Positions 52,147 to 64,000 of a stretch of 64,000 nucleotides of DNA are shown here, piece after piece. The stretch is taken from contig JAVQZZ010000001.1 of assembly GCA_033582715.1 (NCBI GenBank), positions 486,843 through 550,842 of the forward strand, written 5' to 3'. How positions within the stretch are numbered: position 1 is the stretch's first letter; each line of letters opens with the position of its first letter. Below the pieces are notes generated by a model that saw nothing but the letters and a program-made list of their open reading frames with translations, searched no databases and was not told the origin of the DNA. Origin of the DNA: Lysobacterales bacterium (GTDB lineage Bacteria > Pseudomonadota > Gammaproteobacteria > Xanthomonadales > BPKI01). A program made the position numbers and the translations under genes.

Positions 52147-52242
52147 GGACGCGCGAATGGCCGTCGGAGCGCGCGAGGCCGTGCACCGCCCGAGCGAGCG
52201 CGAGGAAGCGCTCGGTCGGCTACTTGGTGAGCGAGCGGGCGG

Positions 52243-53876
52243 ATGAAGGAAGCGGATCTGGCGCGGGCGCGGCGGATCCACGAGGAGTCGGGCGGGAGCT
52301 TCGCGGCGCTCATCGCGAGGCTGGGGCTTGCCTCGGAGCGCGACGTCGCCGAGGCCATCGCCGAGCTCACCGGCGCGCCCCTGGTGCTGGCGCGGGACTG
52401 CCCCGAGCAGCCGCCGCCGCTGCAGCTCCCCGTGCGCTTCCTGCGCCAGTTCCGGGTGGTCCCCTACCGCGACCACGAGCACGAGGTGGAGGCGCTGTTC
52501 GCCGATCCGCTCGACCCTTATCCGGCACGGGCGCTCGCCCTCGCGCTGGGCAAGCCGGTGACGGTCCGGGTCGGGCTCCCCGGCGAGATCGAGGACCTGA
52601 TCGAGCGCTACTTCGGGAGCGGCCGCAGCGCGATGGGCACCATCGTCGAGAGCCTGGGCGAGGAGGGGCCGCCGCCGAGGAGGACGTCGAGCACCTGCGG
52701 GACCTGGCCAGCGAGGCACCGGTGATCCGGCTGGTGAACCTGATCATCCAGCGTGCGGTCGAGCAGCGGGCCTCGGACATCCACATCGAGCCCTTCGAGA
52801 ACCGGCTCAAGGTGCGCTACCGGATCGACGGCGTGCTGCAGGAGGTGGAGGCGCCCCCGGCGAGCTCGACCGCGGCGGTGATCTCGCGGGTCAAGATCAT
52901 GGCCAAGCTCAACATCGCCGAGCGCCGGCTGCCGCAGGACGGGCGGATCATGGTGCGGGTGCAGGGCAAGGAGCTCGACCTGCGCGTCTCGACCGTGCCC
53001 ACGGCGCACGGCGAGAGCGTGGTGATGCGCCTGCTCGACCGCGAGTCGGTGGTCTTCGACTTCCACCGCCTCGGCTTCACCGACGACCTGCTCCGGCGCT
53101 TCCTCGCCGTCCTCGACCGCCCGCACGGGATCCTGCTGGTCACCGGCCCCACCGGCTCGGGCAAGACCACCACCCTCTACACTGCCCTGTCGCGGCTCAA
53201 CACCCCGGACGTCAAGATCATCACCGTCGAGGATCCGGTCGAGTACCAGCTCGAGGGCATCAACCAGATCCAGGTCAAGCCCCAGATCGGCCTCGACTTC
53301 GCGCACGCGCTGCGCTCGATCGTGCGCCAGGACCCCGACATCATCATGATCGGCGAGATGCGCGACCTCGAGACCGCGCGCATCGCGATCCAGTCGGCGC
53401 TCACCGGGCATCTCGTGCTCTCCACCCTGCACACCAACGATGCCGCCGGCGGGGTCACCCGCCTGCTCGACATGGGGGTCGAGGACTATCTGCTGAGCTC
53501 GACCGTGAACGGCATCCTCGCCCAGCGCCTGGTGCGCAAGATCGAGCCCACCCACGCCGAGCGCCACGAGGCGCTCCCCGAGGTGATCGAGGAGTTCGGG
53601 CTGCGCCGCTTCCAGCCCGAGGGGCCGATCCATCTCTTCCGCCCCGTTCCCTCCGAGCTCACCGCCACCGGGTATCTCGGGCGGACCATCATCGCCGAGT
53701 TCCTGGTGATGTCGGATGCCATCCGCCGGCTGGTCATGCAGCGCGCCGAGGCCGGACGCATCGCCGAGCAGGCGCGGGCGGAGGGGATGCTCACCATGTA
53801 CGAGGACGGCCTGCGCAAGGCGCTCGCGGGCATCACCACCATCGAGGAGGTGCTCCGGGTGACGCAGGAGGCCTGA
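52243..53876 (+). CDS. gspE: Type II secretion ATPase GspE; 1 frame break (-1 type, in a G run near 52665)
   Basis: N-terminal T2SSE_N-like domain (...[12 protein letters not shown]...), then DIHIEP...RYRIDGVL..., Walker [36 protein letters not shown]. Confidence 0.93.
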
Positions 53877-53882
53877 GCGGAG

Positions 53883-55102
53883 ATGGCGCTGTTCCACTAC
53901 CAGGCGCTCACCCCGGCGGGCGAGCCGCAGAGCGGCCAGATGGAGGCCGCCTCGCTCGAGGAGGTGGTGACGCGGCTGCAGGACCAGGGCCACGTCGTGC
54001 TGCGCGCCGTTCCCGCCGAGGGCGGCTGCGCGGCCGCAGCCCGCTCGCCCGGCTCTTCGAGCGGCGCGCCCTCGGTGCCCAGGAGATCCTCCAGTTCACC
54101 GAGCAGCTGGCGGTGCTGCTGGCGGCGGGGCAGCCGCTCGACCGGGCGCTGTCGGTCCTGCTCGAGCTGCCGGAGACCGAGGCGGCGCGGCGGGTGATCG
54201 AGAGGATCCGCGAGGCGGTGCGGGGCGGCGCGAGCCTCTCCGAGGCGCTGGAGCGCCAGCACGGGGTGTTCTCGCGCCTCTACGTGAACATGGTGCGCGC
54301 GGGGGAGGTCGGCGGTGCTCTCGACCCGACGCTGCGCCGCCTCGCCAGCTACCTCGCCCGCCAGGCGGCGCTGCGCCAGCAGGTGATCAGCGCCTCGATC
54401 TATCCCGCGATCCTGCTGGCCCTGGTCTTCGCCGCGGTCGGAGTGCTGGTGGGCTACGTGGTGCCGCGCTTCATCCCCATCTTCGCCGGCATGGGCCAGG
54501 AGCTGCCCCTGGTGACCCGCCTGGTGCTGGGCTTCGGGGTCTTCGTCCAGCGCTGGTGGTGGCTCGGGCTGCTCGCGCTCGGCGGCGGCATCTACCTCGG
54601 GGCGCGGCTGCTGGCCGATCCCGCGCGCCGGCTGGCCTTCGACCGCTGGCTGCTGCGGCGCGGCCGCCTCGGGCTGCTGATCGCGCGGATCGAGACCGCG
54701 CGCATCGCCCACACCCTCGGCACCCTGGTCCACAGCGGCGTGCCGCTGCTCGCCTCGCTGGCGGTGGCGAGGAACGTGGCGCGCAACAGCGCGCTCGCCG
54801 CCGCCCTCGGCGAGGCGGCCGCCGAGGTCAAGGAGGGCGCGAGCCTCTCCTGGGCCCTCGGCCGGACCCGCCTGTTCCCGCGGCTCGCGGTGCAGATGAT
54901 CCAGGTCGGCGAGGAGTCCGGCGAGCTGCCGCCGATGCTGGAGCGCCTCGCCGACACCTTCGAGCAGCAGGCGCGCACCGAGATCGACCGGCTGATCGCC
55001 GCCCTGGTGCCCGCCCTCACGGTGGCGATGACGCTGGTCGTGGCGCTGATCATGATGGCGATCCTGATTCCGATCCTGAACCTCTCGGCGAACTTCGGAT
55101 GA
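53883..55102 (+). CDS. gspF: Type II secretion inner-membrane platform protein GspF; 1 frame break (-1 type near 54022)
   Basis: MALFHYQALTPAGEPQSGQMEAASLEEVVTRLQDQGHVVL | ...ILQFTEQLAVLLAAGQPLDRAL...VNMVRAGEVGGALD...MIQVGEESGELPPMLERLADTFE is the duplicated T2SF domain pattern. Confidence 0.92.
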
Positions 55103-55533
55103 GCAATCCCATGTCCCGCAAGGTGCGTCCTCCCGGCCGGGCCACCGGCATGACCCTGATCGAGATCCTGGCGGTGATCGTGCTGATCGGGATCGTGATG
55201 GCGGTGGTGGCGCAGCAGGTCTTCCAGCGGGTGGAGACCGGCAAGTTCAACGCCGCCAAGGCCCAGCTGCAGTCGCTGTCGATGAAGATCGAGGCCTATG
55301 CGCTCGACAACGGTCGCCCGCCCGAGCGCCTCGAGGACCTGGTGCGGCGGCCGCCGCAGGCGCGCAACTGGAACGGCCCCTACGCCCGTGAGTCCGATCT
55401 GCGCGACCCCTGGGGCAACGAGTTCGTCTATCGCGTCCCCGGCGAGCGCGGACCCTTCGACCTGAGCTCCCTCGGGGCCGACGGCCGCGCCGGCGGAGAG
55501 GGTCATGCCCGCGATCTCGGCAACTGGGAGTAG
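55099..55533 (+). CDS. gspG: Major pseudopilin GspG
   Basis: ATGA overlap with gspF. Prepilin motif GMTLIEILAVIVLIGIV, ...KAQLQSLSMKIEAYALDNGRPPERLEDLV...NWNGPY...DPWGNEFVYRVPGERGPFDLSSLGADG. Intact. Confidence 0.93.
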   Translation: MSNPMSRKVRPPGRATGMTLIEILAVIVLIGIVMAVVAQQVFQRVETGKFNAAKAQLQSLSMKIEAYALDNGRPPERLEDLVRRPPQARNWNGPYARESDLRDPWGNEFVYRVPGERGPFDLSSLGADGRAGGEGHARDLGNWE

Positions 55534-55969
55534 CCGGGGCTTCACCCTGGTCGAGCTGGTCGCCGTGCTGCTCCTGGTGGCGATCGGCTTCGCGACCGTG
55601 GCCTGGGGGCTCGCCGGCCAGCTCGAGGGTCGCCGCGTGCGCGCCGCGGCCCAGGAGCTGGTCGCCGCGCTGCGTCACACCCGCGCCCAGGCGATCCATC
55701 GCGGCGAGTCGCTGGCGCTGGAGCTCGACCTCGGGGCGCGCCGCTACCGCGTGCCGGGGCGCGAGCCGGTGGCCCTGCCCGAGGGGATGGAGCTCAGGAT
55801 GCTCACCGCGCGCAGCGAGCAGATCGACCGCGAGCGCGGGCGGATCCGCTTCTACCGCGACGGCAGCTCGACGGGCGGCAACATCGGCCTGATCCACGGC
55901 GAGCGCGAGTGGCGCATCGAGGTTGCCTGGCTGACCGGCGAGGTGACGCTGCGGGAGACGGCGCGGTGA
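55505..55969 (+). CDS. gspH: Minor pseudopilin GspH
   Basis: RGFTLVELVAVLLLVAI prepilin motif, ...AAAQELVAALRHTRAQAI...RIRFYRDGSSTGGNI. Intact. Confidence 0.8.
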   Translation: MPAISATGSSRGFTLVELVAVLLLVAIGFATVAWGLAGQLEGRRVRAAAQELVAALRHTRAQAIHRGESLALELDLGARRYRVPGREPVALPEGMELRMLTARSEQIDRERGRIRFYRDGSSTGGNIGLIHGEREWRIEVAWLTGEVTLRETAR

Positions 55970-56346
55970 GGGAGCGCGGCTTCACCCTGATCGAGATCGT
56001 CGCCGCGCTGTTCCTGCTCGCGCTCGGCTTCGGTCTCCTCCTCCAGACCCTGGCGGCGGGGCTCGCCCTCGCCCGGCGCGGGGCCGAGGAGAGCGAGCTC
56101 GCCCTGGTCGCCCAGAGCCTGCTCGACCGGCTCGGCGCGGACTTCCCGCTCGAGCCCGGGGAGCTGAGGGGCGAGCTCGGCGAGAGCCTGCGCTACCGGC
56201 TGGAGATGCGGGAGGAGACGCCGCCCGGAGGGGGAGAGGTCGCCGCCCATCCCCTGGTGCTGCTCCGGGTCCGCCTCGAGCTCTCGCCCCGCACGGGGGC
56301 GGGGGCGGTGTTCGAGACCCTGCGCGTGGCGCCGAGGCGCTCATGA
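55966..56346 (+). CDS. gspI: Minor pseudopilin GspI
   Basis: GTG start overlapping the gspH stop (GTGA). VRERGFTLIEIVAALFLLALGFG. About 126 aa, in the position expected between H and J. Confidence 0.75.
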   Translation: MRERGFTLIEIVAALFLLALGFGLLLQTLAAGLALARRGAEESELALVAQSLLDRLGADFPLEPGELRGELGESLRYRLEMREETPPGGGEVAAHPLVLLRVRLELSPRTGAGAVFETLRVAPRRS

Positions 56347-57038
56347 GCGCGCGCGGCTTCACGCTGGTCGAGCTGGTCGCGGCGCTGACCCTGTTCGCGC
56401 TGCTCGCCGCGATCGCCTTCGGCACCATGGGCGGCGCGGTGCGCGCCGCCGCCGGCGGCGAGCGGCTCGCCGCGGCCAGCGAGCGCGTCCGGGTGACGCA
56501 GCAGTTCCTGCGCCGGCAGATCGGATTTGCGCTGCCGCTGCCCTTCGCCGCCGATGCCGCGACCGGCTCGCCGATCGTCTTCCGGGGCGATCGGGAGGCG
56601 ATGGAGTTCGTCGCCCAGATGCCGGGGCACCTCGGGGAGGGCGGCCCGCGCCGGCAGCGGCTCGCGCTCGAGCGGGTGGGCCGCGGGCTGGCGCTCACCT
56701 TTCGCTTCATGCCGCTGACGCCGCTCGACCCCTCGAAGGAGATCGAGGACGAGGAGCCGGTGGTGCTCCTCGCCGGCCTGCGCGGCGGGCGGTTCCGCTA
56801 CCGCGGCCTGGACGATGGGCTGGAGCCCGGCGAGTGGAGCGAGGAGTGGCAGGATCACGCCCGGCCCCCGCTGTGGGTGGCGGTCGAGCTCGAGCTGGCC
56901 GAGGAGGAGCCGGTGTCCTGGCCGGAGCTGGTGGTGGCGCTCCAGGTCGACGGGGTGGTGGGCGGCCTCTTCCTCTTCGGTCCGAGCCCGGGCGGCGTCG
57001 ACTTCGGTCCGCGACCGGGCGGGGGAGGGGCGCCGTGA
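56343..57038 (+). CDS. gspJ: Minor pseudopilin GspJ
   Basis: ATGA overlap. MSARGFTLVELVAALTLFALLAAIAF...RVTQQFLRRQI. 231 aa, intact. Confidence 0.75.
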   Translation: MSARGFTLVELVAALTLFALLAAIAFGTMGGAVRAAAGGERLAAASERVRVTQQFLRRQIGFALPLPFAADAATGSPIVFRGDREAMEFVAQMPGHLGEGGPRRQRLALERVGRGLALTFRFMPLTPLDPSKEIEDEEPVVLLAGLRGGRFRYRGLDDGLEPGEWSEEWQDHARPPLWVAVELELAEEEPVSWPELVVALQVDGVVGGLFLFGPSPGGVDFGPRPGGGGAP

Positions 57039-57935
57039 GCCCTCCTCGGCGCGCGCGCGGCGTCGCGCTGTTCGTGGTGGTCTTCGCCACCGCGCTGCTG
57101 GCGGTGGCGCTCGGCGGCTTCGTGCTGCTCGCGCGCACCGAGGGCCTGCTCGCGCGGCATCATCTCGACACGGTGCGCGCCCGGCTGGCGGCCGAGGCGG
57201 GACTCCACCATGCCGTCTACATGCTGTCGCAGCTCGAGCCGCAGGGCGCGCTGGATCGGGGACGGCCGCGAGTACGCGCTCGACTTCGACGGCATCAGGC
57301 TCGAGATCGCGCTCACCGACGAGAGCGGAAAGATCGACCTCAACACCGCCGACGAGGTCGTCCTCAAGTCGCTGTTCGCGCGCACGGGAGGACTGCCCGA
57401 GGACGAGGCCGCGGCGCTCGCGGACGCCGTCCTCGACTGGCGCGACGAGGACGATCTGGTGCGCGCGAACGGGGCGGAGCGCGACGACTACCGCGCGGCC
57501 GGGCTCCCGTACCGCCCGAGCAACCGCGCCTTTGCCACCGAAGAGGAGCTGCTGCAGGTGCTGGGAATGAGCTACGAGCTCTTCCGGAGGATCGAGCCGG
57601 CGCTCACGGTGCACTCGGGGATGGGGCAGCCCAATCCCGCCGCGGCGCCCCTCGAGGCCCTGATGGTCTATCCCGGAATGACCGAGGAGCTCGCGCGCGC
57701 CATCATCGCGCAGCGCCAGCAGGCGGGGCCGGAGATGCTCGGACAGGCGGTGGCCCAGCTTCCGGACGGCACCGCGGTGATCGCCCAGGTCGGAGGGCTC
57801 ACGTATAGTATCCGCGTCCGCGCGGTTCTCCCGACCGGCGCCTCCCGCGAGTTCCACGCCACCATCCGGCTCGGCATGCAGGCGCGAGCCGGGCGCCCCT
57901 TCCACGTGCTGCGCTTCCGCGAGGGCGACATCTGA
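57035..57935 (+). CDS. gspK: Minor pseudopilin GspK; 1 frame break near 57250
   Basis: GTGA overlap. VSPPRRARGVALFVVVFATALLAVAL... | ...LEIALTDESGKIDLNTADEVVLKSLF...AVLDWRDEDD...GAERDDYRAAGLPYRPSNRAFATEEELLQVLGM is the GspK signature. Confidence 0.85.
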
Positions 57936-57938
57936 GCC

Positions 57939-59080
57939 ATGGCGATCGCCGAGGACATCGAGCGTCTCACCGCGCGCCTCCGGGTGCGCTACCTGCGCTC
58001 GCCCCTGCCCCGCTTCCTCGCCTGGTGGCTCGGCGAGCTCAGGGGGCTGCTCCCGAGGCGCTGGCGCGAGGCGCTCGAGCGGAGGCCACGGGCGCTGTAC
58101 CTCGTGGTCGAGGAGGAGGACCCTGGTGCTGCGGCATCCCGACGGGCGCGAGCTCGGCGCCATCGCCCTCGAGCTGCCGCCCGCGGAGCGGCGGCTGGTG
58201 GCGGCGGAGCGCCTAGCTGCCCTCGGCACCGATCCGCCCCCGCTGATCCTCTGCGTCCCCGAGGCGCGTGCGCTGTGCCGGCGTCTCGGCTTCCCGCTCG
58301 CGGTCGAGGAGAACCTCGAGCAGGCGCTGGTCTACGAGATCGACCGCCAGACGCCGTTCCGCGCCGAGGAGGTCTACCTCGACGCCCGCGTGCTCGAGCG
58401 GGACGAGGCCGCGCGCCAGATCGCGGTCGAGATGATCGTGGTGCCGCGCGCCTTCGCCGCGCCGGCGCTCGCCGCGGCGCGCGAGGCCGGGCTTCCGCTC
58501 TTCGGCCTCGATGCCCTCGACGAGGAGGGAAGGCCGCGCGGCTTCAACCTCCTGCCCCGCGGCGAACGGGTGCGTCCCCCCGATCCGCGCCGGAAGGTGA
58601 ATCTCGCGCTGGGGGCGGCGGCGATCGCGCTCGCGCTGCTCGCGATGCAGCTCTCGCTCGCCAACCGCGCCGAGGCGGTGCGCGCCCTGCGTGCCGAGGT
58701 CGAGAGGCTGCACCGCGAGGCGCGCGAGGTGGCGGCGCTGCGGGAGCGGCTGGAGCGGGCGGTCGCGGCGGCGGGCTTCCTCGCCGAGCGGCGGGCGGCG
58801 CAGCCGCCGGTGGTGCTGCTGCTCGACGAGCTCTCGCGGCTGCTTCCGGACGACACCTTCCTCGAGCACCTGAACCTGAGCAAGGGGGAGCTCGTGCTGC
58901 ATGGCTTCAGCTCGTCGGCGGCGGGGCTGATCGGCGCGCTCAGGGAGGCGCGCCATCTGGCGGAGCCCTCGTTCCAGGGGGCGATCCGCCCCGATCCCCG
59001 CTACGGGAAGGAGCGCTTCGAGCTGAAGGCCGCGACACGGATGCTCGGCGCGCGCCCCGCACGGGGAGGAGGGCGCATGA
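57939..59080 (+). CDS. gspL: GspL-like assembly protein with PilN-like TM and periplasmic half; about 2 frame breaks, 3' end inferred
   Basis: MAIAEDIERLTARLRVRYLRSPLPRFLAWWLGELRGLLP... | ...ENLEQALVYEIDRQTPFRAEEVYLD...FNLLPRGERV...KVNLALGAAAIALALLAMQL (TM)...coiled coil...LLLDELSRLLPDDTFLEHLNL. The predicted stop (GCATGA) overlaps the gspM ATG after GGAGGAGG. Confidence 0.65.
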
Positions 59081-59685
59081 GTCGCGACCGGCTGCTCGCG
59101 GTCCTGCTGCTGCTCGCGGCGCTCGGCCTGGTCTACCTGCTCGGCGTCCACTGGTGGTTCGTGGCCGGACACCGCGCGCTCGCGCGCGAGCTGGCCGATC
59201 TCGGCGAGCAGGCCGCGCGCTTCCGGGGACTGATCGCGCAGCGTCCGGAGATCGAGGCCCGGCTGGCCGAGGTCGAGGCGCTCGATGCCGCGAATCCGGG
59301 ATTCCTCCAGGATCCGAGCTTCGACCAGGCCAGCGCCACCCTGATCACCCGGCTGCGCCAGGCGACCGAGCGCCATGCGGGGCTGAGTCCGCAGGGCTGC
59401 ATGGTGCTCAGCAATCAGCCCATCCGCAGCCGCGAGGCCGAGGTCTTCCTGCGGGTGACCCTCAACGTGCAGATGCGCTGCGGACTCGAGGCCTTCGCCG
59501 CGGTGCTGCGGGAGCTCGAGGGCGGCTCGCCGATGCTGTTCGTCGACGAGCTCAGCATCTTCGCGCGCCGCTTCGGGCGACCGGTCGGGGGGGTGGCGCT
59601 GCCCCACCAGCCGCAGGACTTCATCGAGTACAACTTCGCGCTCTACGGCTATCTGCGACAGCCCGGAGGAGCCGATGCTCGCTGA
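59077..59685 (+). CDS. gspM: GspM-like inner-membrane protein
   Basis: MSRDRLLAVLLLLAALGLVYLLGVHWWF (TM), then ~170 periplasmic aa. The position after L and the size fit GspM. Read in frame with the L ORF in the track. Confidence 0.6.
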   Translation: MSRDRLLAVLLLLAALGLVYLLGVHWWFVAGHRALARELADLGEQAARFRGLIAQRPEIEARLAEVEALDAANPGFLQDPSFDQASATLITRLRQATERHAGLSPQGCMVLSNQPIRSREAEVFLRVTLNVQMRCGLEAFAAVLRELEGGSPMLFVDELSIFARRFGRPVGGVALPHQPQDFIEYNFALYGYLRQPGGADAR

Positions 59686-60364
59686 TCCTCGGCAGGCGGT
59701 CACGCTGTTCCTGGCGGCGCTGGTCGGGCTCCTCGGCCTGCTGGTGCTCGCCGAGCTCGCGGGGCTGGGCCGTTCCTACCGGCTGCCCGATCCCGCGCCC
59801 CCCGCGCCGCTCCCTGGCCTCGAGGCCGGGCGCGAGCCTCTCGACCTTCCGGCGGCGTCCGAGCTCGCGGCGATCACCGAGCGTCCGGTGTTCGAGCCCT
59901 CCCGCCGTCCGCCGGCGCCCGTCCAGGCGGCGGAGACGCCCCCGCCCGAGGCGCAGCCGGCGGTGCCGCCGCTCGATGTGCGGGTGACCGGGATCCTCGT
60001 CACCCCTGCGCTCCGGCTGGCGATGCTGCGTCCCGCGGGGGCCCAGGACTCGGTGGTGCTGCGCGAGGGCGCACCGCTTCCCGGCGATTTCGCGGCGTGG
60101 CGGATCGCCCGCATCCTGCCGCGCCGGGTCGAGTTCGAGGGGGCGGCCGGCGGGCCTCCGGCCACCGTGGAACTCGAGGTGGACCGCACGGTCCGAGCGT
60201 CCGCGCCGGGGCTGGCGACGGCGACCGTCGGCGAGGTGGTGCCGGCGCAGAACCCCGATCTCGAGGTCCAGCGGCGCGCCGAGGAAATCCGCCGCCGCAT
60301 CGAGGAGCGCCGGCGTCAGCTGCGCGAGGAAGCCGCCCGACTCGGAGGCCCCGAAAAGCAATGA
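59675..60364 (+). CDS. gspN: GspN / XpsN-type protein (GspC-equivalent, no PDZ recognised)
   Basis: MLADPRQAVTLFLAALVGLLGLLVLAEL (TM), Pro-rich linker, ...LDVRVTGILVTPALRLAMLRPAGAQDSVVLREGAPLPGD..WRIARILPRRVEFEG (HR-like beta domain). Sits directly before the secretin, as xpsN does in Xanthomonas. Confidence 0.55.
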   Translation: MLADPRQAVTLFLAALVGLLGLLVLAELAGLGRSYRLPDPAPPAPLPGLEAGREPLDLPAASELAAITERPVFEPSRRPPAPVQAAETPPPEAQPAVPPLDVRVTGILVTPALRLAMLRPAGAQDSVVLREGAPLPGDFAAWRIARILPRRVEFEGAAGGPPATVELEVDRTVRASAPGLATATVGEVVPAQNPDLEVQRRAEEIRRRIEERRRQLREEAARLGGPEKQ

Positions 60365-62535
60365 TCACGACCGTTCCCTCCCTGCCGTCGCCGCTGCGGC
60401 TCCTGCTGGCCCTGGGACTGGCGCTCGCCGGCGGCTGCGCGGTGCCGAGGCTGGCGGCGCCCGAGCCCCTCACCAGCGGCCGTTCGACCCGCGAGGCCCT
60501 CCAGGAGCAGGCGGAGGCCTCGCCGGGAGCCGCCGAGGCGAGCGCGCGGGAGGAGCCGATCATCGAGCCCGGCACCGGCAGCTTCATCGACGAGCGCGCC
60601 GCCTCGCGGCCGTCGCCGCCGCCCCCCGCCGACGGAGAGCTCGTGCTCAACTTCGAGAACGAGTCGATCCAGGCGGTGGTCAAGGCGATCCTCGGCGACC
60701 TGCTGCAGCAGAACTACGTGATCGCGCCGGGGGTGGGCGGCACCGTGACCTTCTCCACGGCGCGGCCCATCCGCATCGAGCAGGCGATGCCGATCCTCGA
60801 GATGCTGCTCGCCTGGAACAACGCCACCCTGGTCTGGCAGGACGGGCGCTACGTGGTCCTGCCGATCGCCCAGGCGATTCCCGGCAACCTCGCGCCGCGC
60901 ATCGGCGCCCCGGAGGCGGCCAAGGGCTACGAGCTGCGCGCGGTGCCGCTGCGCTACATCTCGGCCACCGAGATGGAGAAGCTGCTCCAGCCCTACATCC
61001 GGCCGGGCGCGATCGTGCGCACCGACAACCTGCGCAACATGCTGGTGCTGGCCGGAACGGCGCGCGAGCTCGCGACCTACCTCCAGACCGTCGAGGTCTT
61101 CGACGTCGACTGGCTCGCCGGGATGTCGGTGGCGATCTTCCCGATCGAGTCGGTCGAGGTGGCGAAGCTCCTGCCCGAGCTCGAGGCGGTCTTCGGCGAG
61201 GGTGCCAACACCCCGCTCGCCGGGCTGTTCCGCTTCATGCCGATCGAGCGGCTGAACGCGATCCTGGTGATCACCACCCAGCCGCGCTATCTCGAGGAGG
61301 CCGAGAAGTGGATCCGCCGCCTCGACCGGGGCGGCACCGCGAGCGGGGCCCGGCTCTACGTCTATGACGTCAAGAACGTCAAGGCCGCGGATCTCGCGAA
61401 CTACCTGAACGAGGTCTTCGGCGGCGGAGGCGGCGCCGCCCGCGCCACCCCGGGGGGCACGGTGGCCCCGGGGCTGCAGCCGGTCGAGATCCGCGCGATC
61501 AACGATCCCCGCGGTCCCGCGGTGCAGCCGACGGAGGTCAAGGCCGAACCCCCGCCGCCGACGCCCGGCCAGGGGATCGCGATCGGGGACACCGAGGACA
61601 TCCGGATCACCGCGATCGAGGAGTCGAACTCGCTGCTCATCCGCGCCACGCCCTCGCAGTACGAGGCGGTGCTGGCCGCGATCCGCCGGCTCGACCGGGT
61701 GCCCCTGCAGGTGCACATCGAGACCCGGATCATCGAGGTGGCGCTCAACGACCAGCTGCGCTTCGGCGTGCAGTGGTTCTTCGAGAACGCGCGCAACCAG
61801 CAGGGCGCGCCGCGCGCGCGCGGCGGCACCCTGAACCAGCAGGGGCTCACCTGGAGCTTCGTCACCAGCGACTGGGCCTCGATCCTCGAGACCCTCGACT
61901 CGGTCTCCGAGACCCGGGTGATCTCGGCGCCCTCGGTGGTGGTGCTCAACAACAAGTCGGCCAACATCAACGTGGGCCGCCAGATCCCGGTGGTCAGCAC
62001 CTTCATCGACCCGATCGGCGGCATCGGCGGCAACCCCGGGACGGGCTTCCAGCGCGGCCTGGTGCAGTTCCGCGACACGGGGGTGATCCTCAACGTCACC
62101 CCGCGCGTGAACCCGGGCGGGCTGGTCTTCATGGAGATCAAGCAGGAGGACTCGACCCCCGAGGAGACACCGGACCCCACCGGCAACGTCCCGGTCAGCC
62201 GCCGCTCGATCGAGACCGAGGTCGCGGTGCAGAGTGGCCAGACCGTGCTGCTCGGCGGCCTGATCAAGCAGACCGAGGGCCAGGCCCGCGCTGGGGCGCC
62301 GGGCCTGAGCCGGATCCCGGTGCTCGGCGGGATCTTCGGCCGCCAGAGCCGCACCGCCGACCGGCAGGAGCTGCTGGTCATGATCACGCCGACGGTGATC
62401 GGCTCCGTGGAGGACGCGGAGCAGCTCACCGACGAGTACCGCCGCCGCTTCGTGGGCCTCGAGCCGCTGCGCGGGGCGCCCCGCGGCGAGGCGGACGAGC
62501 CGCCCGCGTCCCCTGACGGAGAGCCGCTGCCATGA
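60361..62535 (+). CDS. gspD: Type II secretion secretin GspD (lipidated form)
   Basis: ATGA overlap. Lipobox LALAGGC. N0-N3 domains (LVLNFENESIQAVVKAILGDLL..., ...YELRAVPLRYISATEMEKLL..., ...LYVYDVKNVKAADLANYL...). Secretin core (VHIETRIIEVALNDQLRFGVQW...ISAPSVVVLNNKSANINVGRQIPV...VQSGQTVLLGGLI...GLSRIPVLGGIFG...ELLVMITPTVI). Intact 724 aa. Confidence 0.93.
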   Translation: MITTVPSLPSPLRLLLALGLALAGGCAVPRLAAPEPLTSGRSTREALQEQAEASPGAAEASAREEPIIEPGTGSFIDERAASRPSPPPPADGELVLNFENESIQAVVKAILGDLLQQNYVIAPGVGGTVTFSTARPIRIEQAMPILEMLLAWNNATLVWQDGRYVVLPIAQAIPGNLAPRIGAPEAAKGYELRAVPLRYISATEMEKLLQPYIRPGAIVRTDNLRNMLVLAGTARELATYLQTVEVFDVDWLAGMSVAIFPIESVEVAKLLPELEAVFGEGANTPLAGLFRFMPIERLNAILVITTQPRYLEEAEKWIRRLDRGGTASGARLYVYDVKNVKAADLANYLNEVFGGGGGAARATPGGTVAPGLQPVEIRAINDPRGPAVQPTEVKAEPPPPTPGQGIAIGDTEDIRITAIEESNSLLIRATPSQYEAVLAAIRRLDRVPLQVHIETRIIEVALNDQLRFGVQWFFENARNQQGAPRARGGTLNQQGLTWSFVTSDWASILETLDSVSETRVISAPSVVVLNNKSANINVGRQIPVVSTFIDPIGGIGGNPGTGFQRGLVQFRDTGVILNVTPRVNPGGLVFMEIKQEDSTPEETPDPTGNVPVSRRSIETEVAVQSGQTVLLGGLIKQTEGQARAGAPGLSRIPVLGGIFGRQSRTADRQELLVMITPTVIGSVEDAEQLTDEYRRRFVGLEPLRGAPRGEADEPPASPDGEPLP

Positions 62536-62948
62536 GCCGACACCCGTTCATCCTTGCCGCCGTCCTCCTCGCCGCCCTGCTCGCGGCCTGCGCCGGCGCG
62601 CCGCGCAAGGCGTCCTCGAGCCCCGAGGAGGCGGTCGCGCAGCGCGCCAAGGAGCGCTGGGAGCACCTGATGAAGGGCCGGATCGACGAGGCCCTGGGCT
62701 ACATCGCTCCTGGATCGCGGGCGCTGATCGATCGCGAGTCCTACGTCGCGCAGAAGCGCAACGCCCCGGTGATGTACACCGGGGTCGAGGTGCTGGAGGT
62801 GCGCTGCGAGCAGGAGGCCTGCACCGCCGAGCTCAAGGTCCACACCCAGGCCCCACTGCCCTTCGCCGGCATGGTGCCGGCGTGGTCCTTCCTCAGGGAG
62901 CGCTGGGTGCGCGACGGCGGGACCTGGTACCTGGTCCCCGATCCGTGA
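62532..62948 (+). CDS. Small lipoprotein of unknown function, translationally coupled to gspD
   Basis: ATGA overlap with the gspD stop. MSRHPFILAAVLLAALLAAC (lipobox)...138 aa, ending ...FLRERWVRDGGTWYLVPDP. Intact. Confidence 0.6.
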   Translation: MSRHPFILAAVLLAALLAACAGAPRKASSSPEEAVAQRAKERWEHLMKGRIDEALGYIAPGSRALIDRESYVAQKRNAPVMYTGVEVLEVRCEQEACTAELKVHTQAPLPFAGMVPAWSFLRERWVRDGGTWYLVPDP

Positions 62949-62981
62949 GCGGGAGCGGCGGAGAGCGGCTCGCGCGGGGGA

Positions 62982-63010
62982 TTGCAAGCCCGTGGCGGCC
63001 GCCGTATCAT
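62982..63010 (+). promoter_or_regulatory. Near-consensus sigma70 promoter for the downstream secreted-protein gene
   Basis: TTGCAA (62982-62987), 17-nt spacer, TATCAT (63005-63010). It is followed by a 5'-UTR hairpin at 63037-63069 (GGGCTT..CCGTCT cggc AGACGG AAGCCC) and AGGAG 8 nt before the ATG. Confidence 0.55.
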
Positions 63011-63096
63011 CCGAGCACCGTCATGCCGGGAGCAGGGGGCTTTCCGGCCGTCTCGGCAGACGGAAGCCCTGTGATCGTTCCGTTAGGAGTGTTGCC

Positions 63097-64000
63097 ATGA
63101 GAAGAAACAAGCTGAGCACGGCGATCTTCGCCGGCATCGCGGGCGTGGCGGGCATCGCCGCTACCGGCAACGCCGCGCTCTACATCAACCCGGACGGCAC
63201 CGGCCAGGTGCTGATCTATCCCTACTACACGGTCAACAACAACCTCCAGACCCTGATCTCGATCGTCAATACCACGGATCGGGGCAAGGCGGTGAAGGTC
63301 CGGTTCCTCGAGGGCTACAACAGTAAGGAAGTCCTCGACTTCAACCTGTACCTCTCGGAGTTCGACGTGTGGACGGCGGCGATCATCTCCGCCTCCGCCG
63401 ACACCTCCGGTCCGGGCCGCCTGATCTCCTTCGACCGCTCGTGCACCGCGCCGGCGATCCCCTCGGGCGGCGTCGACTTCCGTAACTTCGTCTATGCGCT
63501 CACCTCGCCCGACTCCGGTCCCGGCACGCTGGCCCGCACCCGCGAGGGCCACATCGAGATGATCGAGATGGGCACGGTGAACAACGCCCCGGGCTTCCCG
63601 GCGCTGACCTGGATCACCCACGTCTCGGGCACGCCGGCCAACTGCGCGAACATCCGCGCGGCCTGGTCGCCGGGTGGCCAGTGGACCACGAATCCGCTGC
63701 TCGGCATCACCGCGCCCACCGGCGGCCTGTTCGGTTCGGCGGCGATCGTCGACGTCGCCAACGGCGTGATGTACTCCTACAACGCCGACGCCATCGACGC
63801 CTTCCGCGCCACCGCCAACCACACCGATCCGGGCAGCGTGTTCCCCTCGCTGGCGGACAATGACACCGCCCCGAACCCGCGTTCGAGCATCGTGTTCTAC
63901 AACGGTGTGGCGGTGACCGCGCAGTGGCCGGCCGGTCAGGCGATCGACGCGACCTCCTCGGTGTTCATGCACAGCGCGCTGGCGAACGAGTACTCGCTCG
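63097..64000 (+). CDS. Secreted protein of unknown family (N-terminal 301 aa; runs off the window); not in the supplied ORF track
   Basis: My own translation from ATG 63097: MRRNKLSTAIFAGIAGVAGIAATGNAALYINPDGTGQVLIYPYYTVNNNLQTLISIVNTTDRGKAVKVRFLEGYNSKEVLDFNLYLSEFDVWTAAIISASADTSGPGRLISFDRSCTAPAIPSGGVDFRNFVYALTSPDSGPGTLARTREGHIEMIEMGTVNN... There is no stop to nt 64000. It has a signal peptide, SD, promoter and GC3-rich codons with an N/Y/T/I/F-rich composition. Confidence 0.75.
   Translation, partial: MRRNKLSTAIFAGIAGVAGIAATGNAALYINPDGTGQVLIYPYYTVNNNLQTLISIVNTTDRGKAVKVRFLEGYNSKEVLDFNLYLSEFDVWTAAIISASADTSGPGRLISFDRSCTAPAIPSGGVDFRNFVYALTSPDSGPGTLARTREGHIEMIEMGTVNNAPGFPALTWITHVSGTPANCANIRAAWSPGGQWTTNPLLGITAPTGGLFGSAAIVDVANGVMYSYNADAIDAFRATANHTDPGSVFPSLADNDTAPNPRSSIVFYNGVAVTAQWPAGQAIDATSSVFMHSALANEYSL

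What the first reader, a model, noticed from the sequence alone, without database searches (positions are those of the whole stretch)
62982..64000. Edge ORF missing from the ORF track: strongly signalled secreted protein of unknown family right after the T2SS
This ORF has the best sigma70-like promoter I found in the window (TTGCAA-17-TATCAT). It also has a structured 5' UTR and an AGGAG SD, followed by at least 301 codons with no stop and no frame break.

The product has a classical signal peptide (..IAGVAGIAATGNA/A). Its beta-rich, N/Y/T-rich sequence (ALYINPDGTGQVLIYPYYTVNNNLQTLISIVNTTDRGKAVKVRFLEGYNSKEVLDFNLYLSEFDVWTAAI...) matches no family I can name. The antisense track ORF 63007..63972 is an artefact.

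The location and signals suggest an abundant exported protein. It could be a T2SS cargo, a surface-layer or fibre subunit, or the first gene of a further system lying beyond the window.
Basis: seen in the sequence. Interest (0 to 1): 0.6.

Follow-up and report, generated by a model that had tools for sequence, protein, structure and literature searches.

The report
NpdA-family surface-layer protein gene
The edge ORF is real and begins a 496-residue member of the NpdA family, the protein that forms the crystalline surface layer in some Beta- and Gammaproteobacteria; the protein is therefore a known kind, but its conserved promoter and folded mRNA leader have not been described.

Summary
An ATG at 63097 opens 301 stop-free codons with GC3 of 0.93. 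An identical public protein shows that the gene continues to 496 aa.

The protein matches nothing in Pfam, NCBIfam, PDB sequences or Foldseek. It is nevertheless homologous over its full length to NpdA of Paracidovorax citrulli, the experimentally proven S-layer protein (BLASTP E=1e-34). It is 45-49% identical to proteins that the NpdA paper lists as orthologues, including one from Rudaea, where an S-layer was imaged.

It has the family's hallmark position directly after a gsp type II secretion cluster. In about 80 species the order is GspD, small lipoprotein, NpdA, variable gene, PrsA-like isomerase, Wzm/Wzt. This resembles the Aeromonas VapA locus.

The promoter (TTGCnn-17-TAnnAT) is conserved in 78 of 82 upstream regions. 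The leader carries a covarying 5'-terminal hairpin and an invariant AGCCCUGUG...UUAGGAGUG block that is absent from Rfam.

Verdict: this is a new member of a known kind, most likely an abundant S-layer subunit exported by the adjacent T2SS. The leader RNA and the accessory genes are the new parts. Apparent frameshifts in gspF, gspK and gspL of the window need checking.

The parts
62982..62987 (+). -35 hexamer TTGCAA of the npdA promoter
   Evidence: Found by the scan. TTG is present in 81 of 82 aligned upstream regions and C in 76 of 82.
63005..63010 (+). -10 hexamer TATCAT, 17 nt after the -35
   Evidence: the spacer is exactly 17 nt in 78 of 82 distinct upstream regions; T 74, A 80, A 63 and T 80 of 82 at positions 1, 2, 5 and 6.
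63018..63063 (+). 5'-terminal long hairpin of the mRNA leader. It starts about 1-3 nt after the expected transcription start, which is inferred from the -10 position.
   Evidence: -26.1 kcal/mol, z -2.91, 0 of 200 shuffles. The equivalent hairpin in relatives shows covariation. The window matches model R1 weakly (27 bits, E about 1e-3).
63065..63073 (+). Leader motif AGCCCTGTG, invariant or nearly so
   Evidence: Conserved in essentially all 71 aligned leaders at about 45% protein identity. Its AGC closes the base of the long hairpin in relatives. CCCU can pair with the AGG of the Shine-Dalgarno sequence; this pairing is predicted but cannot be tested because both sides are invariant.
63071..63095 (+). 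Local hairpin in which CGUUCC pairs with GGAGUG and so covers the Shine-Dalgarno sequence. It is specific to the window's clade.
   Evidence: Minimum-free-energy structure (-5.8 kcal/mol, z -0.33, not significant on its own). The CGTTCC insert is shared with L006, L008, L009 and L010.
63085..63089 (+). Shine-Dalgarno AGGAG, 7 nt before the ATG, inside the conserved block TTAGGAGTGTTG
   Evidence: Read directly. Invariant in the alignment.
63097..63174 (+). Start codon and Sec-type signal peptide (residues 1-26, predicted cleavage TGNA/A)
   Evidence: by inspection. pLDDT is below 50 for residues 1-34. P. citrulli NpdA has a 25-residue signal peptide (PMC10765051).
63175..64000 (+). Mature NpdA-family S-layer protein, residues 27-301 of 496. 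The gene runs off the window edge.
   Evidence: 100% identical full-length protein P0001. BLASTP against P. citrulli NpdA gives E=1e-34 and against Rudaea E=3e-102. AlphaFold2 model has pLDDT 88.4 and pTM 0.90.
62532..62948 (+). Conserved small lipoprotein (138 aa, lipobox LLAAC, NTF2-like fold). Its start overlaps the gspD stop (ATGA).
   Evidence: AlphaFold2 pLDDT is 85.8. Foldseek finds NTF2-like folds at E 3e-5 to 1e-3. Present between gspD and npdA in 74 of 78 loci.
60361..62535 (+). gspD secretin of the adjacent type II secretion system
   Evidence: TIGR02517 at E=2.7e-137 plus the Pfam Secretin domains. 89% identical to L006 GspD.
52224..60364 (+). gspE-F-G-H-I-J-K-L-M-N (Xps-type T2SS). 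gspF, gspK and gspL appear frameshifted in this sequence.
   Evidence: Pfam hits. tblastn with the L006 proteins shows frame changes at about 54041, 57244 and 58100-58123.

Best explanation
The ORF is the 5' 60% of an npdA-family gene. It encodes the subunit of a proteinaceous surface layer (S-layer) of a Xanthomonadales bacterium.

**Shown here**
- The gene is a self-contained unit. It has a phylogenetically conserved sigma70-type promoter, an approximately 80-nt leader with a stable 5'-terminal hairpin, and a strong Shine-Dalgarno sequence. In the identical contig L001 a strong intrinsic terminator follows the gene.
- The 496-aa product is a full-length homologue of the experimentally proven S-layer protein NpdA.
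- It sits in the family's hallmark position, directly downstream of a gsp type II secretion cluster.

**Inferred**
- The pre-protein crosses the inner membrane through Sec and loses a 26-residue signal peptide.
- It folds in the periplasm. Four conserved cysteines probably form two disulfides, and the PrsA/SurA-like parvulin encoded two genes downstream may assist.
- The folded protein is pushed through the GspD secretin by the adjacent T2SS.
- It then self-assembles on lipopolysaccharide, whose O-antigen is probably made by the Wzm/Wzt genes that follow in relatives.
- The promoter and the 5' hairpin provide the very high, stable expression that an S-layer needs.
For: **Full-length gene.** P0001 is 100% identical over the 301 residues, is 496 aa long, and comes from a 2.34-Mb Xanthomonadales MAG contig. 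The same gene lies on L001.

**Homology to proven or listed NpdA proteins.**
- BLASTP against P. citrulli NpdA (WP_011797163) gives E=1e-34 at 28% identity, aligned over residues 1-491. All four cysteines and the blocks GKAVKVRF, DVWTAAV, TREG, FDREE and WxFxxPTKR are shared. In that species the protein was shown to form the S-layer by deletion, proteomics and cryo-EM.
- It is 49% identical to N. halophilus WP_013034518 and 45% identical to the Rudaea cellulosilytica protein (E=3e-102). The NpdA paper lists both as orthologues, and Rudaea shows an S-layer by cryo-EM.

**Genomic context.**
- The paper's hallmark is npdA directly after a gsp cluster. Here gspE through gspD lie immediately upstream.
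- In species-level genomes GspD lies upstream in 66 of 68 loci, PpiC downstream in 63 of 68, and Wzm+Wzt downstream in 59 of 65.
- In Aeromonas salmonicida, T2SS genes and vapA are inserted between wzm and wzt (PMC4483657).

**Expression signals.** The promoter is conserved in 78 of 82 regions. The hairpin is significant and covaries. A terminator follows the gene.

**Published parallels.** S-layer genes elsewhere use efficient promoters and stabilising 5' UTR structures (PMC3666127). NpdA assembly depends on LPS in Delftia (PMC3110197).
Against: - There are no experimental data for this organism or its close relatives.
- Identity to the two genetically proven NpdA proteins is only about 28%.
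- For gammaproteobacterial orthologues, the paper itself says the link between the imaged S-layer and NpdA is still a hypothesis.
- The window's gspF, gspK and gspL read as frameshifted. If that is real, export would fail.
- Whether this T2SS is dedicated to NpdA or is the cell's general Xps system is unknown.
- The AlphaFold2 monomer gives no lattice information, and its fold matches nothing solved. The structure therefore neither supports nor contradicts an S-layer role.
Confidence: 0.8

Rival explanations
1. The protein is an NpdA-family member secreted by the T2SS, but in this lineage it is not a lattice-forming S-layer. It would instead be another kind of surface or extracellular protein, such as an adhesin, a matrix protein or a vesicle coat.
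For: - Identity to the proven S-layer proteins is only 28%.
- The family is very large and varied: 4438 representatives, including double-module proteins of 930-975 aa and one of 1647 aa.
- For Gammaproteobacteria the S-layer assignment is explicitly hypothetical.
Against: - Homology covers the full length, with conserved cysteines and sequence blocks.
- Rudaea, whose orthologue is 45% identical, shows an S-layer.
- The expression signals (conserved promoter, stabilising hairpin, terminator) and the linkage to O-antigen genes fit a bulk structural coat.
Confidence: 0.12
2. The locus is decaying in this genome. The T2SS is inactivated by frameshifts, so the npdA gene, although intact as far as it can be seen, yields no exported layer.
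For: tblastn with intact L006 proteins shows frame changes inside gspF, gspK and gspL. The gspF change is a 2-nt length difference in a variable linker.
Against: - npdA, gspD and the lipoprotein gene are intact, with a GC3 typical of coding sequence.
- The promoter and leader keep the clade consensus.
- Three indels within 8 kb of a MAG are also what assembly or consensus errors look like.
- An independent Logan assembly (L001) confirms the npdA region but does not cover gspF, gspK or gspL.
Confidence: 0.06
3. The protein is an outer-membrane beta-barrel, a porin, or a pilus or fibre subunit rather than a secreted layer protein.
For: The sequence is beta-rich and carries a signal peptide.
Against: - There is no match to any porin, usher, pilin or fibre family in Pfam, NCBIfam or PDB.
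- The C-terminus (…RLIVTP) lacks the terminal aromatic residue typical of barrel proteins.
- The homologue NpdA is extracted as a surface-layer protein.
Confidence: 0.02

Closest known systems
NpdA (nanopod protein A), S-layer protein of Delftia sp. Cs1-4 (DelCs14_5206) and Paracidovorax citrulli AAC00-1 (Aave_4148, WP_011797163)
   Same: - Full-length homology (E=1e-34).
- A signal peptide of about 25 residues, and a mature protein of about 50 kDa with no database domain.
- Four conserved cysteines.
- The gene lies directly after a gsp T2SS cluster.
- Gammaproteobacterial orthologues listed in the same paper are 45-49% identical.
   Different: - Only 28% identical to the proven proteins.
- Shorter (496 aa against 534 aa or about 560 aa).
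- Belongs to the Xanthomonadales branch, where a small lipoprotein separates gspD from npdA and a conserved leader RNA is present.
- Nanopod formation and SDS-resistant oligomers are unknown here.
VapA / A-layer of Aeromonas salmonicida with its Sps T2SS (PMC4483657)
   Same: - An S-layer subunit of about 50 kDa encoded next to a T2SS.
- Both are embedded in or adjacent to a Wzm/Wzt (ABC-2) O-antigen cluster.
- Export by the T2SS, followed by a layer on LPS.
   Different: - Sequence relationship to NpdA was not tested here because no VapA sequence was available to the tools.
- Gene order differs: in Aeromonas the T2SS and vapA are inserted between wzm and wzt.
- No parvulin or NTF2-like lipoprotein is reported there.
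Slr4 of Pseudoalteromonas tunicata (cited in PMC10765051)
   Same: An S-layer gene physically linked to a T2SS cluster in a gammaproteobacterium.
   Different: slr4 lies upstream of the T2SS. No sequence comparison was made here.
RsaA of Caulobacter crescentus
   Same: An abundant S-layer subunit encoded beside its own secretion genes and anchored to O-antigen LPS (the LPS anchoring is from my own background knowledge; the linkage is stated in PMC10765051).
   Different: RsaA uses a type I system with a C-terminal signal and has no Sec signal peptide. It is an unrelated protein.
5' UTR stabilising structures of Lactobacillus slpA mRNAs (PMC3666127)
   Same: A long, folded 5' leader upstream of an S-layer gene, together with an efficient promoter. 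In Lactobacillus the mRNA half-life of 14-15 min is attributed to that structure.
   Different: The sequence and organisms are unrelated. Here the stabilising role is only inferred, and the invariant AGCCCUGUG block has no counterpart.

Membership tests
NpdA S-layer protein family (PMC3110197, PMC10765051) | BLASTP-detectable homology to P. citrulli NpdA WP_011797163. This is the criterion the authors used to call orthologues. | tested here: met
   E=1e-34 at 28% identity, residues 1-491 of 496 aligned to 1-530 of 534. The reference sequence came from the paper's supplement (machine-read PDF, so small errors are possible).
NpdA S-layer protein family (PMC3110197, PMC10765051) | Close similarity to sequences already listed as NpdA orthologues in Gammaproteobacteria | tested here: met
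   49% identical to N. halophilus WP_013034518, which equals P0109. 45% identical, E=3e-102, to Rudaea cellulosilytica WP_157578530.
NpdA S-layer protein family (PMC3110197, PMC10765051) | N-terminal Sec signal peptide of about 25 residues and otherwise no conserved database domain | tested here: met
   The signal peptide was read from the sequence; no predictor was available. There are no Pfam or NCBIfam hits for the fragment or the full protein.
NpdA S-layer protein family (PMC3110197, PMC10765051) | Gene located next to, typically downstream of, a gsp type II secretion cluster | tested here: met
   gspE through gspD occupy 52224-62535 directly upstream. GspD is upstream in 66 of 68 related loci.
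NpdA S-layer protein family (PMC3110197, PMC10765051) | The protein forms the S-layer: it can be extracted from the surface, the layer is lost on deletion, and a lattice is seen by EM | not testable with these tools
   This needs a culture. The nearest physical evidence is the S-layer imaged in Rudaea cellulosilytica.
NpdA S-layer protein family (PMC3110197, PMC10765051) | SDS-resistant oligomers above 150 kDa and LPS-dependent self-assembly | not testable with these tools
   Reported for Delftia and P. citrulli. No computation available here addresses it.
Type II secretion substrate | Sec or Tat signal peptide, periplasmic folding, and export that depends on Gsp proteins | tested here: inconclusive
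   The signal peptide and four conserved cysteines are present, and a T2SS is adjacent. Dependence on Gsp is untested even for P. citrulli NpdA.
Any Rfam RNA family (for the 5' leader) | A covariance-model match at or near the gathering score | tested here: not met
   cmscan at E up to 10 on window 62800-63300 and on L067 5700-6100 returned only noise: 12-18 bits against gathering scores of 38-100.

The most novel reading that the evidence does not exclude
The conserved npdA leader is a new cis-acting RNA element, not just a passive stabiliser.

Its features are a 5'-terminal hairpin with 21 of 23 covarying pairs, the invariant AGCCCUGUG, and the invariant UUAGGAGUGUUG. The AGC of the invariant block closes the base of the long hairpin, while the adjacent CCCU can pair with the AGG of the Shine-Dalgarno sequence. 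The element could therefore couple mRNA stability to gated translation of the S-layer subunit. For example, it might respond to a protein or small-RNA partner, to unexported subunit, or to temperature.

The window's clade, whose closest relative by name (KatS3mg125) may come from a hot spring, carries a stronger local anti-SD hairpin.
Probability: 0.25. Interest if true: 0.55.

Novelty: new member of a known kind. Interest (0 to 1): 0.35.

Why it matters
- **Annotation.** A 'hypothetical protein' can now be read as the probable major surface protein of a Xanthomonadales lineage. The adjacent T2SS can be read as its likely exporter.
- **Scale of the family.** NpdA is far larger than published. 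This work finds at least 593 species-level genomes and about 4400 clusters at 50% identity, against 111 species in the 2023 survey. The family still has no Pfam or NCBIfam model and no solved structure, and the confident AlphaFold2 model matches no known fold. It is a good target for structure determination.
- **A testable parts list for S-layer biogenesis in diderm bacteria.** The conserved neighbours are an NTF2-like lipoprotein, a variable gene, a PrsA-like isomerase and Wzm/Wzt O-antigen export genes. The arrangement parallels the unrelated-looking Aeromonas locus.
- **The promoter and leader unit.** It is a candidate new RNA motif and possibly a strong expression cassette for high-GC Gammaproteobacteria.

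Tried and rejected
**Searches for a known protein family or fold (all negative)**
- Pfam and NCBIfam on the 301-aa fragment and on full-length proteins found nothing.
- A profile search of PDB sequences gave only chance hits at E above 0.3.
- Foldseek of the AlphaFold2 model against PDB and against viral models had a best E of about 0.02 with TM-score at or below 0.18.

**RNA analyses**
- Rfam gave nothing for the leader.
- RNAalifold on a plain MAFFT alignment of 71 leaders saw only the invariant GCCCU/AGGAG helix, because the variable hairpin was misaligned. This was resolved by taking the structure from single-sequence folds, checking it on an 18-sequence MAFFT alignment, and realigning with a covariance model.
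- The covariance model gave one extra weak hit, on L002 20706-20759 minus strand (E 0.003). I treated it as chance.

**Alternative readings considered and rejected**
- A 25-codon upstream ORF (63023-63100, ending in ATGA over the npdA start) was rejected. In L009 the same ATG reads a different frame and stops earlier, and the typical leaders have no such ATG.
- A sigma54 reading of GGGGATTGCA was rejected by inspection, because no GG lies at the required distance upstream of the GC.
- The antisense ORF 63007..63972 was rejected on codon-position GC.

**Not done.** Homology to Aeromonas VapA could not be tested because no VapA sequence was available to the tools.
Full report
**Observation**

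An ATG at 63097-63099 opens a frame that runs to the window edge: 301 codons with no stop, giving exactly the quoted sequence. GC at codon positions 1/2/3 is 0.56/0.52/0.93, similar to gspD at 0.97 in position 3. The 321-aa antisense ORF 63007..63972 has 0.90/0.53/0.56, the signature of a shadow ORF in 73% GC DNA.

The promoter-like site TTGCAA-17-TATCAT (62982-63010) is the only one found in the last 2 kb, against 0.0 expected from shuffles. Only four sites in the whole window reach 9 of 12 matches, and this is the only one with a 17-nt spacer. AGGAG lies 7 nt before the ATG. The N-terminus (MRRNK, a hydrophobic core, TGNA/A) reads as a Sec signal peptide, and residues 1-34 are disordered in the structure model.

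**The gene continues beyond the window**

A protein search returned P0001, which is 100% identical over all 301 residues and 496 aa long. It comes from a 2.34-Mb contig of a Xanthomonadales MAG (RML12_02525). An independent assembly of the same gene, L001, shows the rest of the ORF. It also shows a strong intrinsic terminator 22 nt after the stop codon: an 11-bp stem with 8 G-C pairs, followed by a T run.

**Identity of the protein**

Databases of domains and structures return nothing:
- Pfam and NCBIfam gave no hit for the fragment or for full-length relatives.
- A profile search of PDB sequences gave no significant hit.
- An AlphaFold2 model built on 68 homologues is confident (pLDDT 88.4, pTM 0.90). 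It matches nothing in PDB or in viral models by Foldseek (best E about 0.02, TM-score at or below 0.18).

The literature does name the family. A full-text search found Gajbhiye et al. 2023 (PMC10765051). That paper shows by deletion, proteomics and cryo-EM that NpdA forms the S-layer of Paracidovorax citrulli. It lists orthologues in 62 beta- and 49 gammaproteobacterial species, and it notes that npdA lies just downstream of a cluster of 12 gsp genes.

NpdA was first defined in Delftia sp. Cs1-4. There it is needed for the S-layer and for 'nanopods', runs as SDS-resistant oligomers, and assembles in an LPS-dependent way (PMC3110197).

The paper's supplementary sequence file contains N. halophilus WP_013034518. 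This is my hit P0109, which is 49% identical to the window protein. The file also contains Rudaea, Rhodanobacter and Lysobacter proteins carrying the same YPYYTV...AVKVRF motifs.

Direct BLASTP comparisons gave the following results:

| Compared with P0001 | E-value | Identity | Notes |
|---|---|---|---|
| P. citrulli NpdA | 1e-34 | 28% | Essentially end to end; four shared cysteines and shared blocks |
| Rudaea cellulosilytica orthologue | 3e-102 | 45% | An S-layer was imaged in Rudaea |

Every membership criterion of the NpdA family that can be computed is met. The experimental criteria cannot be tested here.

**Surroundings**

The window carries gspE, F, G, H, I, J, K, L, M, N and D directly upstream, between 52224 and 62535. 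A 138-aa lipoprotein gene follows, and its ATG overlaps the gspD stop codon (ATGA). The lipoprotein has the lipobox LLAAC. Its model (pLDDT 85.8) has an NTF2-like fold.

Contexts of relatives show a common order: GspD, this lipoprotein, NpdA, a variable 200-430-aa gene, a PrsA/SurA-like parvulin, Wzm, Wzt with its C-terminal domain, then glycosyl- and methyltransferases. This holds in Ahniella, Nitrosococcus, several metagenomes and 80 species-level genomes. In the closest relatives the variable gene encodes a Flg_new_2 repeat protein.

Counted only on loci with enough flanking DNA, the frequencies are:

| Neighbour | Loci with it / loci assessable |
|---|---|
| GspD upstream | 66 / 68 |
| Small lipoprotein | 74 / 78 |
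| Parvulin (PpiC-type) downstream | 63 / 68 |
| Wzm + Wzt downstream | 59 / 65 |

This arrangement mirrors Aeromonas salmonicida, where an S-layer-specific T2SS and vapA are inserted between the wzm and wzt genes of an ABC-2 O-antigen cluster (PMC4483657).

**Expression signals**

I aligned 82 distinct upstream regions. The -35 TTG is present in 81 of them, the spacer is exactly 17 nt in 78, and the -10 reads T(74) A(80) n n A(63) T(80). The promoter is therefore real in the evolutionary sense.

From the end of the -10 hexamer to the ATG is usually 101-119 nt, and 86 nt in the window's clade. That corresponds to a leader of roughly 95-110 nt in most relatives and about 80 nt in the window.

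As a whole the window's leader is no more stable than shuffled sequence (z -0.29). Its first 49 nt, however, form a hairpin of -26.1 kcal/mol (z -2.91, 0 of 200 shuffles).

In relatives, single-sequence folds give one long imperfect hairpin that starts within a few nucleotides of the expected 5' end. I tested that structure in two ways:

| Alignment | Cells paired | Paired with partners slid | Compensatory changes | Shuffle control |
|---|---|---|---|---|
| Plain MAFFT, 18 leaders | 82.6% | 35-51% | 8 pairs | — |
| Covariance-model realignment, 72 distinct leaders | 85.3% | 32-46% | 21 of 23 pairs | 0 of 500 shuffles reach any measure |

Two caveats apply: the structure was derived from one of the sequences, and the second alignment is fitted to it.

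The model hits once per locus, always just upstream of npdA. The window scores weakly (27 bits).

Downstream of the hairpin, AGCCCUGUG and UUAGGAGUGUUG are essentially invariant even at 45% protein identity. RNAalifold pairs GCCCU with AGGAG, but invariance makes that pairing untestable. The window's clade has an extra CGUUCC that pairs with GGAGUG.

Rfam 15 has no family for this leader.

**Mechanism**

What is shown:
- The gene belongs to the NpdA family.
- It has conserved T2SS and O-antigen neighbours.
- It is a conserved transcription unit of its own.

What is inferred:
- Sec export with signal-peptide cleavage after residue 26.
- Periplasmic folding with two disulfides, possibly assisted by the parvulin.
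- Export of the folded subunit through the adjacent T2SS.
- Self-assembly on LPS into a surface lattice.
- High and stable expression from the promoter and the 5' hairpin, as described for Lactobacillus S-layer genes (PMC3666127).

I put about 0.95 on family membership and about 0.8 on the S-layer role in this organism.

**Doubts**

- Identity to the proven proteins is low.
- For Gammaproteobacteria the authors themselves call the link between the imaged layer and NpdA a hypothesis.
- Compared with intact relatives, gspF, gspK and gspL of the window change frame at about 54041, 57244 and 58100-58123. These may be assembly errors in a MAG or real decay of the secretion system.

**Novelty and score**

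The protein is a new member of a known, though poorly catalogued, kind. The following appear not to have been described:
- **Scale of the family.** The motif scan matched at least 599 stretches in species-level genomes, of which 593 were confirmed. A profile search found 4438 representatives at 50% identity, including tandem double-module proteins.
- **Conserved accessory genes.** The 2023 paper mentions only the gsp genes; the word 'isomerase' does not occur in it.
- **The promoter-leader RNA element.**

Overall interest is modest (0.35). The main question is answered by existing work, but the leader RNA and the locus architecture are worth following up.

Noticed in passing
window 53883-55102, 57035-57935, 57939-59080: gspF, gspK and gspL each change reading frame relative to intact homologues from L006, at about 54041, 57244 and 58100-58123. 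As a result, the 682-aa ORF 57939..59987 in the ORF list is mostly a spurious read-through. The cause could be MAG assembly indels or a decaying T2SS.
   Followed up: partly
window 62532-62948: A small lipoprotein (lipobox LLAAC, two conserved cysteines, predicted NTF2-like fold) is translationally coupled to gspD through an ATGA overlap. It is conserved between gspD and npdA in 74 of 78 related loci. It has no family assignment and its function is unknown. GspD itself begins with a lipobox-like LAGGC, so a pilotin role is not obvious.
   Followed up: partly
L001 3938-5242; L006 11630-20497; L004 11812-20558; L002 11707-13794: Conserved genes lie beyond the window after npdA: a variable secreted protein (Flg_new_2 / InlB B-repeat in the closest relatives), a PrsA/SurA-like parvulin isomerase, Wzm, Wzt with the Wzt_C domain, glycosyltransferases and a methyltransferase. 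Together these make an ABC-transporter-type O-antigen cluster, as in the Aeromonas A-layer locus.
   Followed up: partly
L001 3551-3576: A strong intrinsic terminator (11-bp stem, 8 G-C pairs, T run) lies 22 nt after the npdA stop codon. With its own promoter, this makes npdA a monocistronic unit.
   Followed up: yes
P0129-P0140, P0137 (profile search): Some family members are 930-975 aa long and contain two complete NpdA modules in tandem. One is 1647 aa with the module at its C-terminus. Such architectures are not mentioned in the NpdA papers read here.
   Followed up: no
L029 and L073 (L073 is from the same MAG as L018): These two NpdA-like genes lack the T2SS, lipoprotein, parvulin and Wzm/Wzt neighbours, and lack or nearly lack the leader motif. 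At least L073 is a second paralogue in a genome that also has the canonical locus.
   Followed up: no
L003 9859-10000 (Nitrosococcus halophilus): The Nitrosococcus npdA orthologue keeps a TTGCCT-17-TAACTT site. Its distance from the -10 hexamer to the ATG is only about 60 nt, and it is not hit by the leader model. The leader RNA motif therefore appears limited to the Xanthomonadales-type branch, plus Marinicella and one Oceanospirillales MAG.
   Followed up: partly
window 63023-63100: A 25-codon upstream ORF in the leader ends in ATGA across the npdA start codon. It is not conserved in frame in the closest relatives, so it is probably meaningless.
   Followed up: yes
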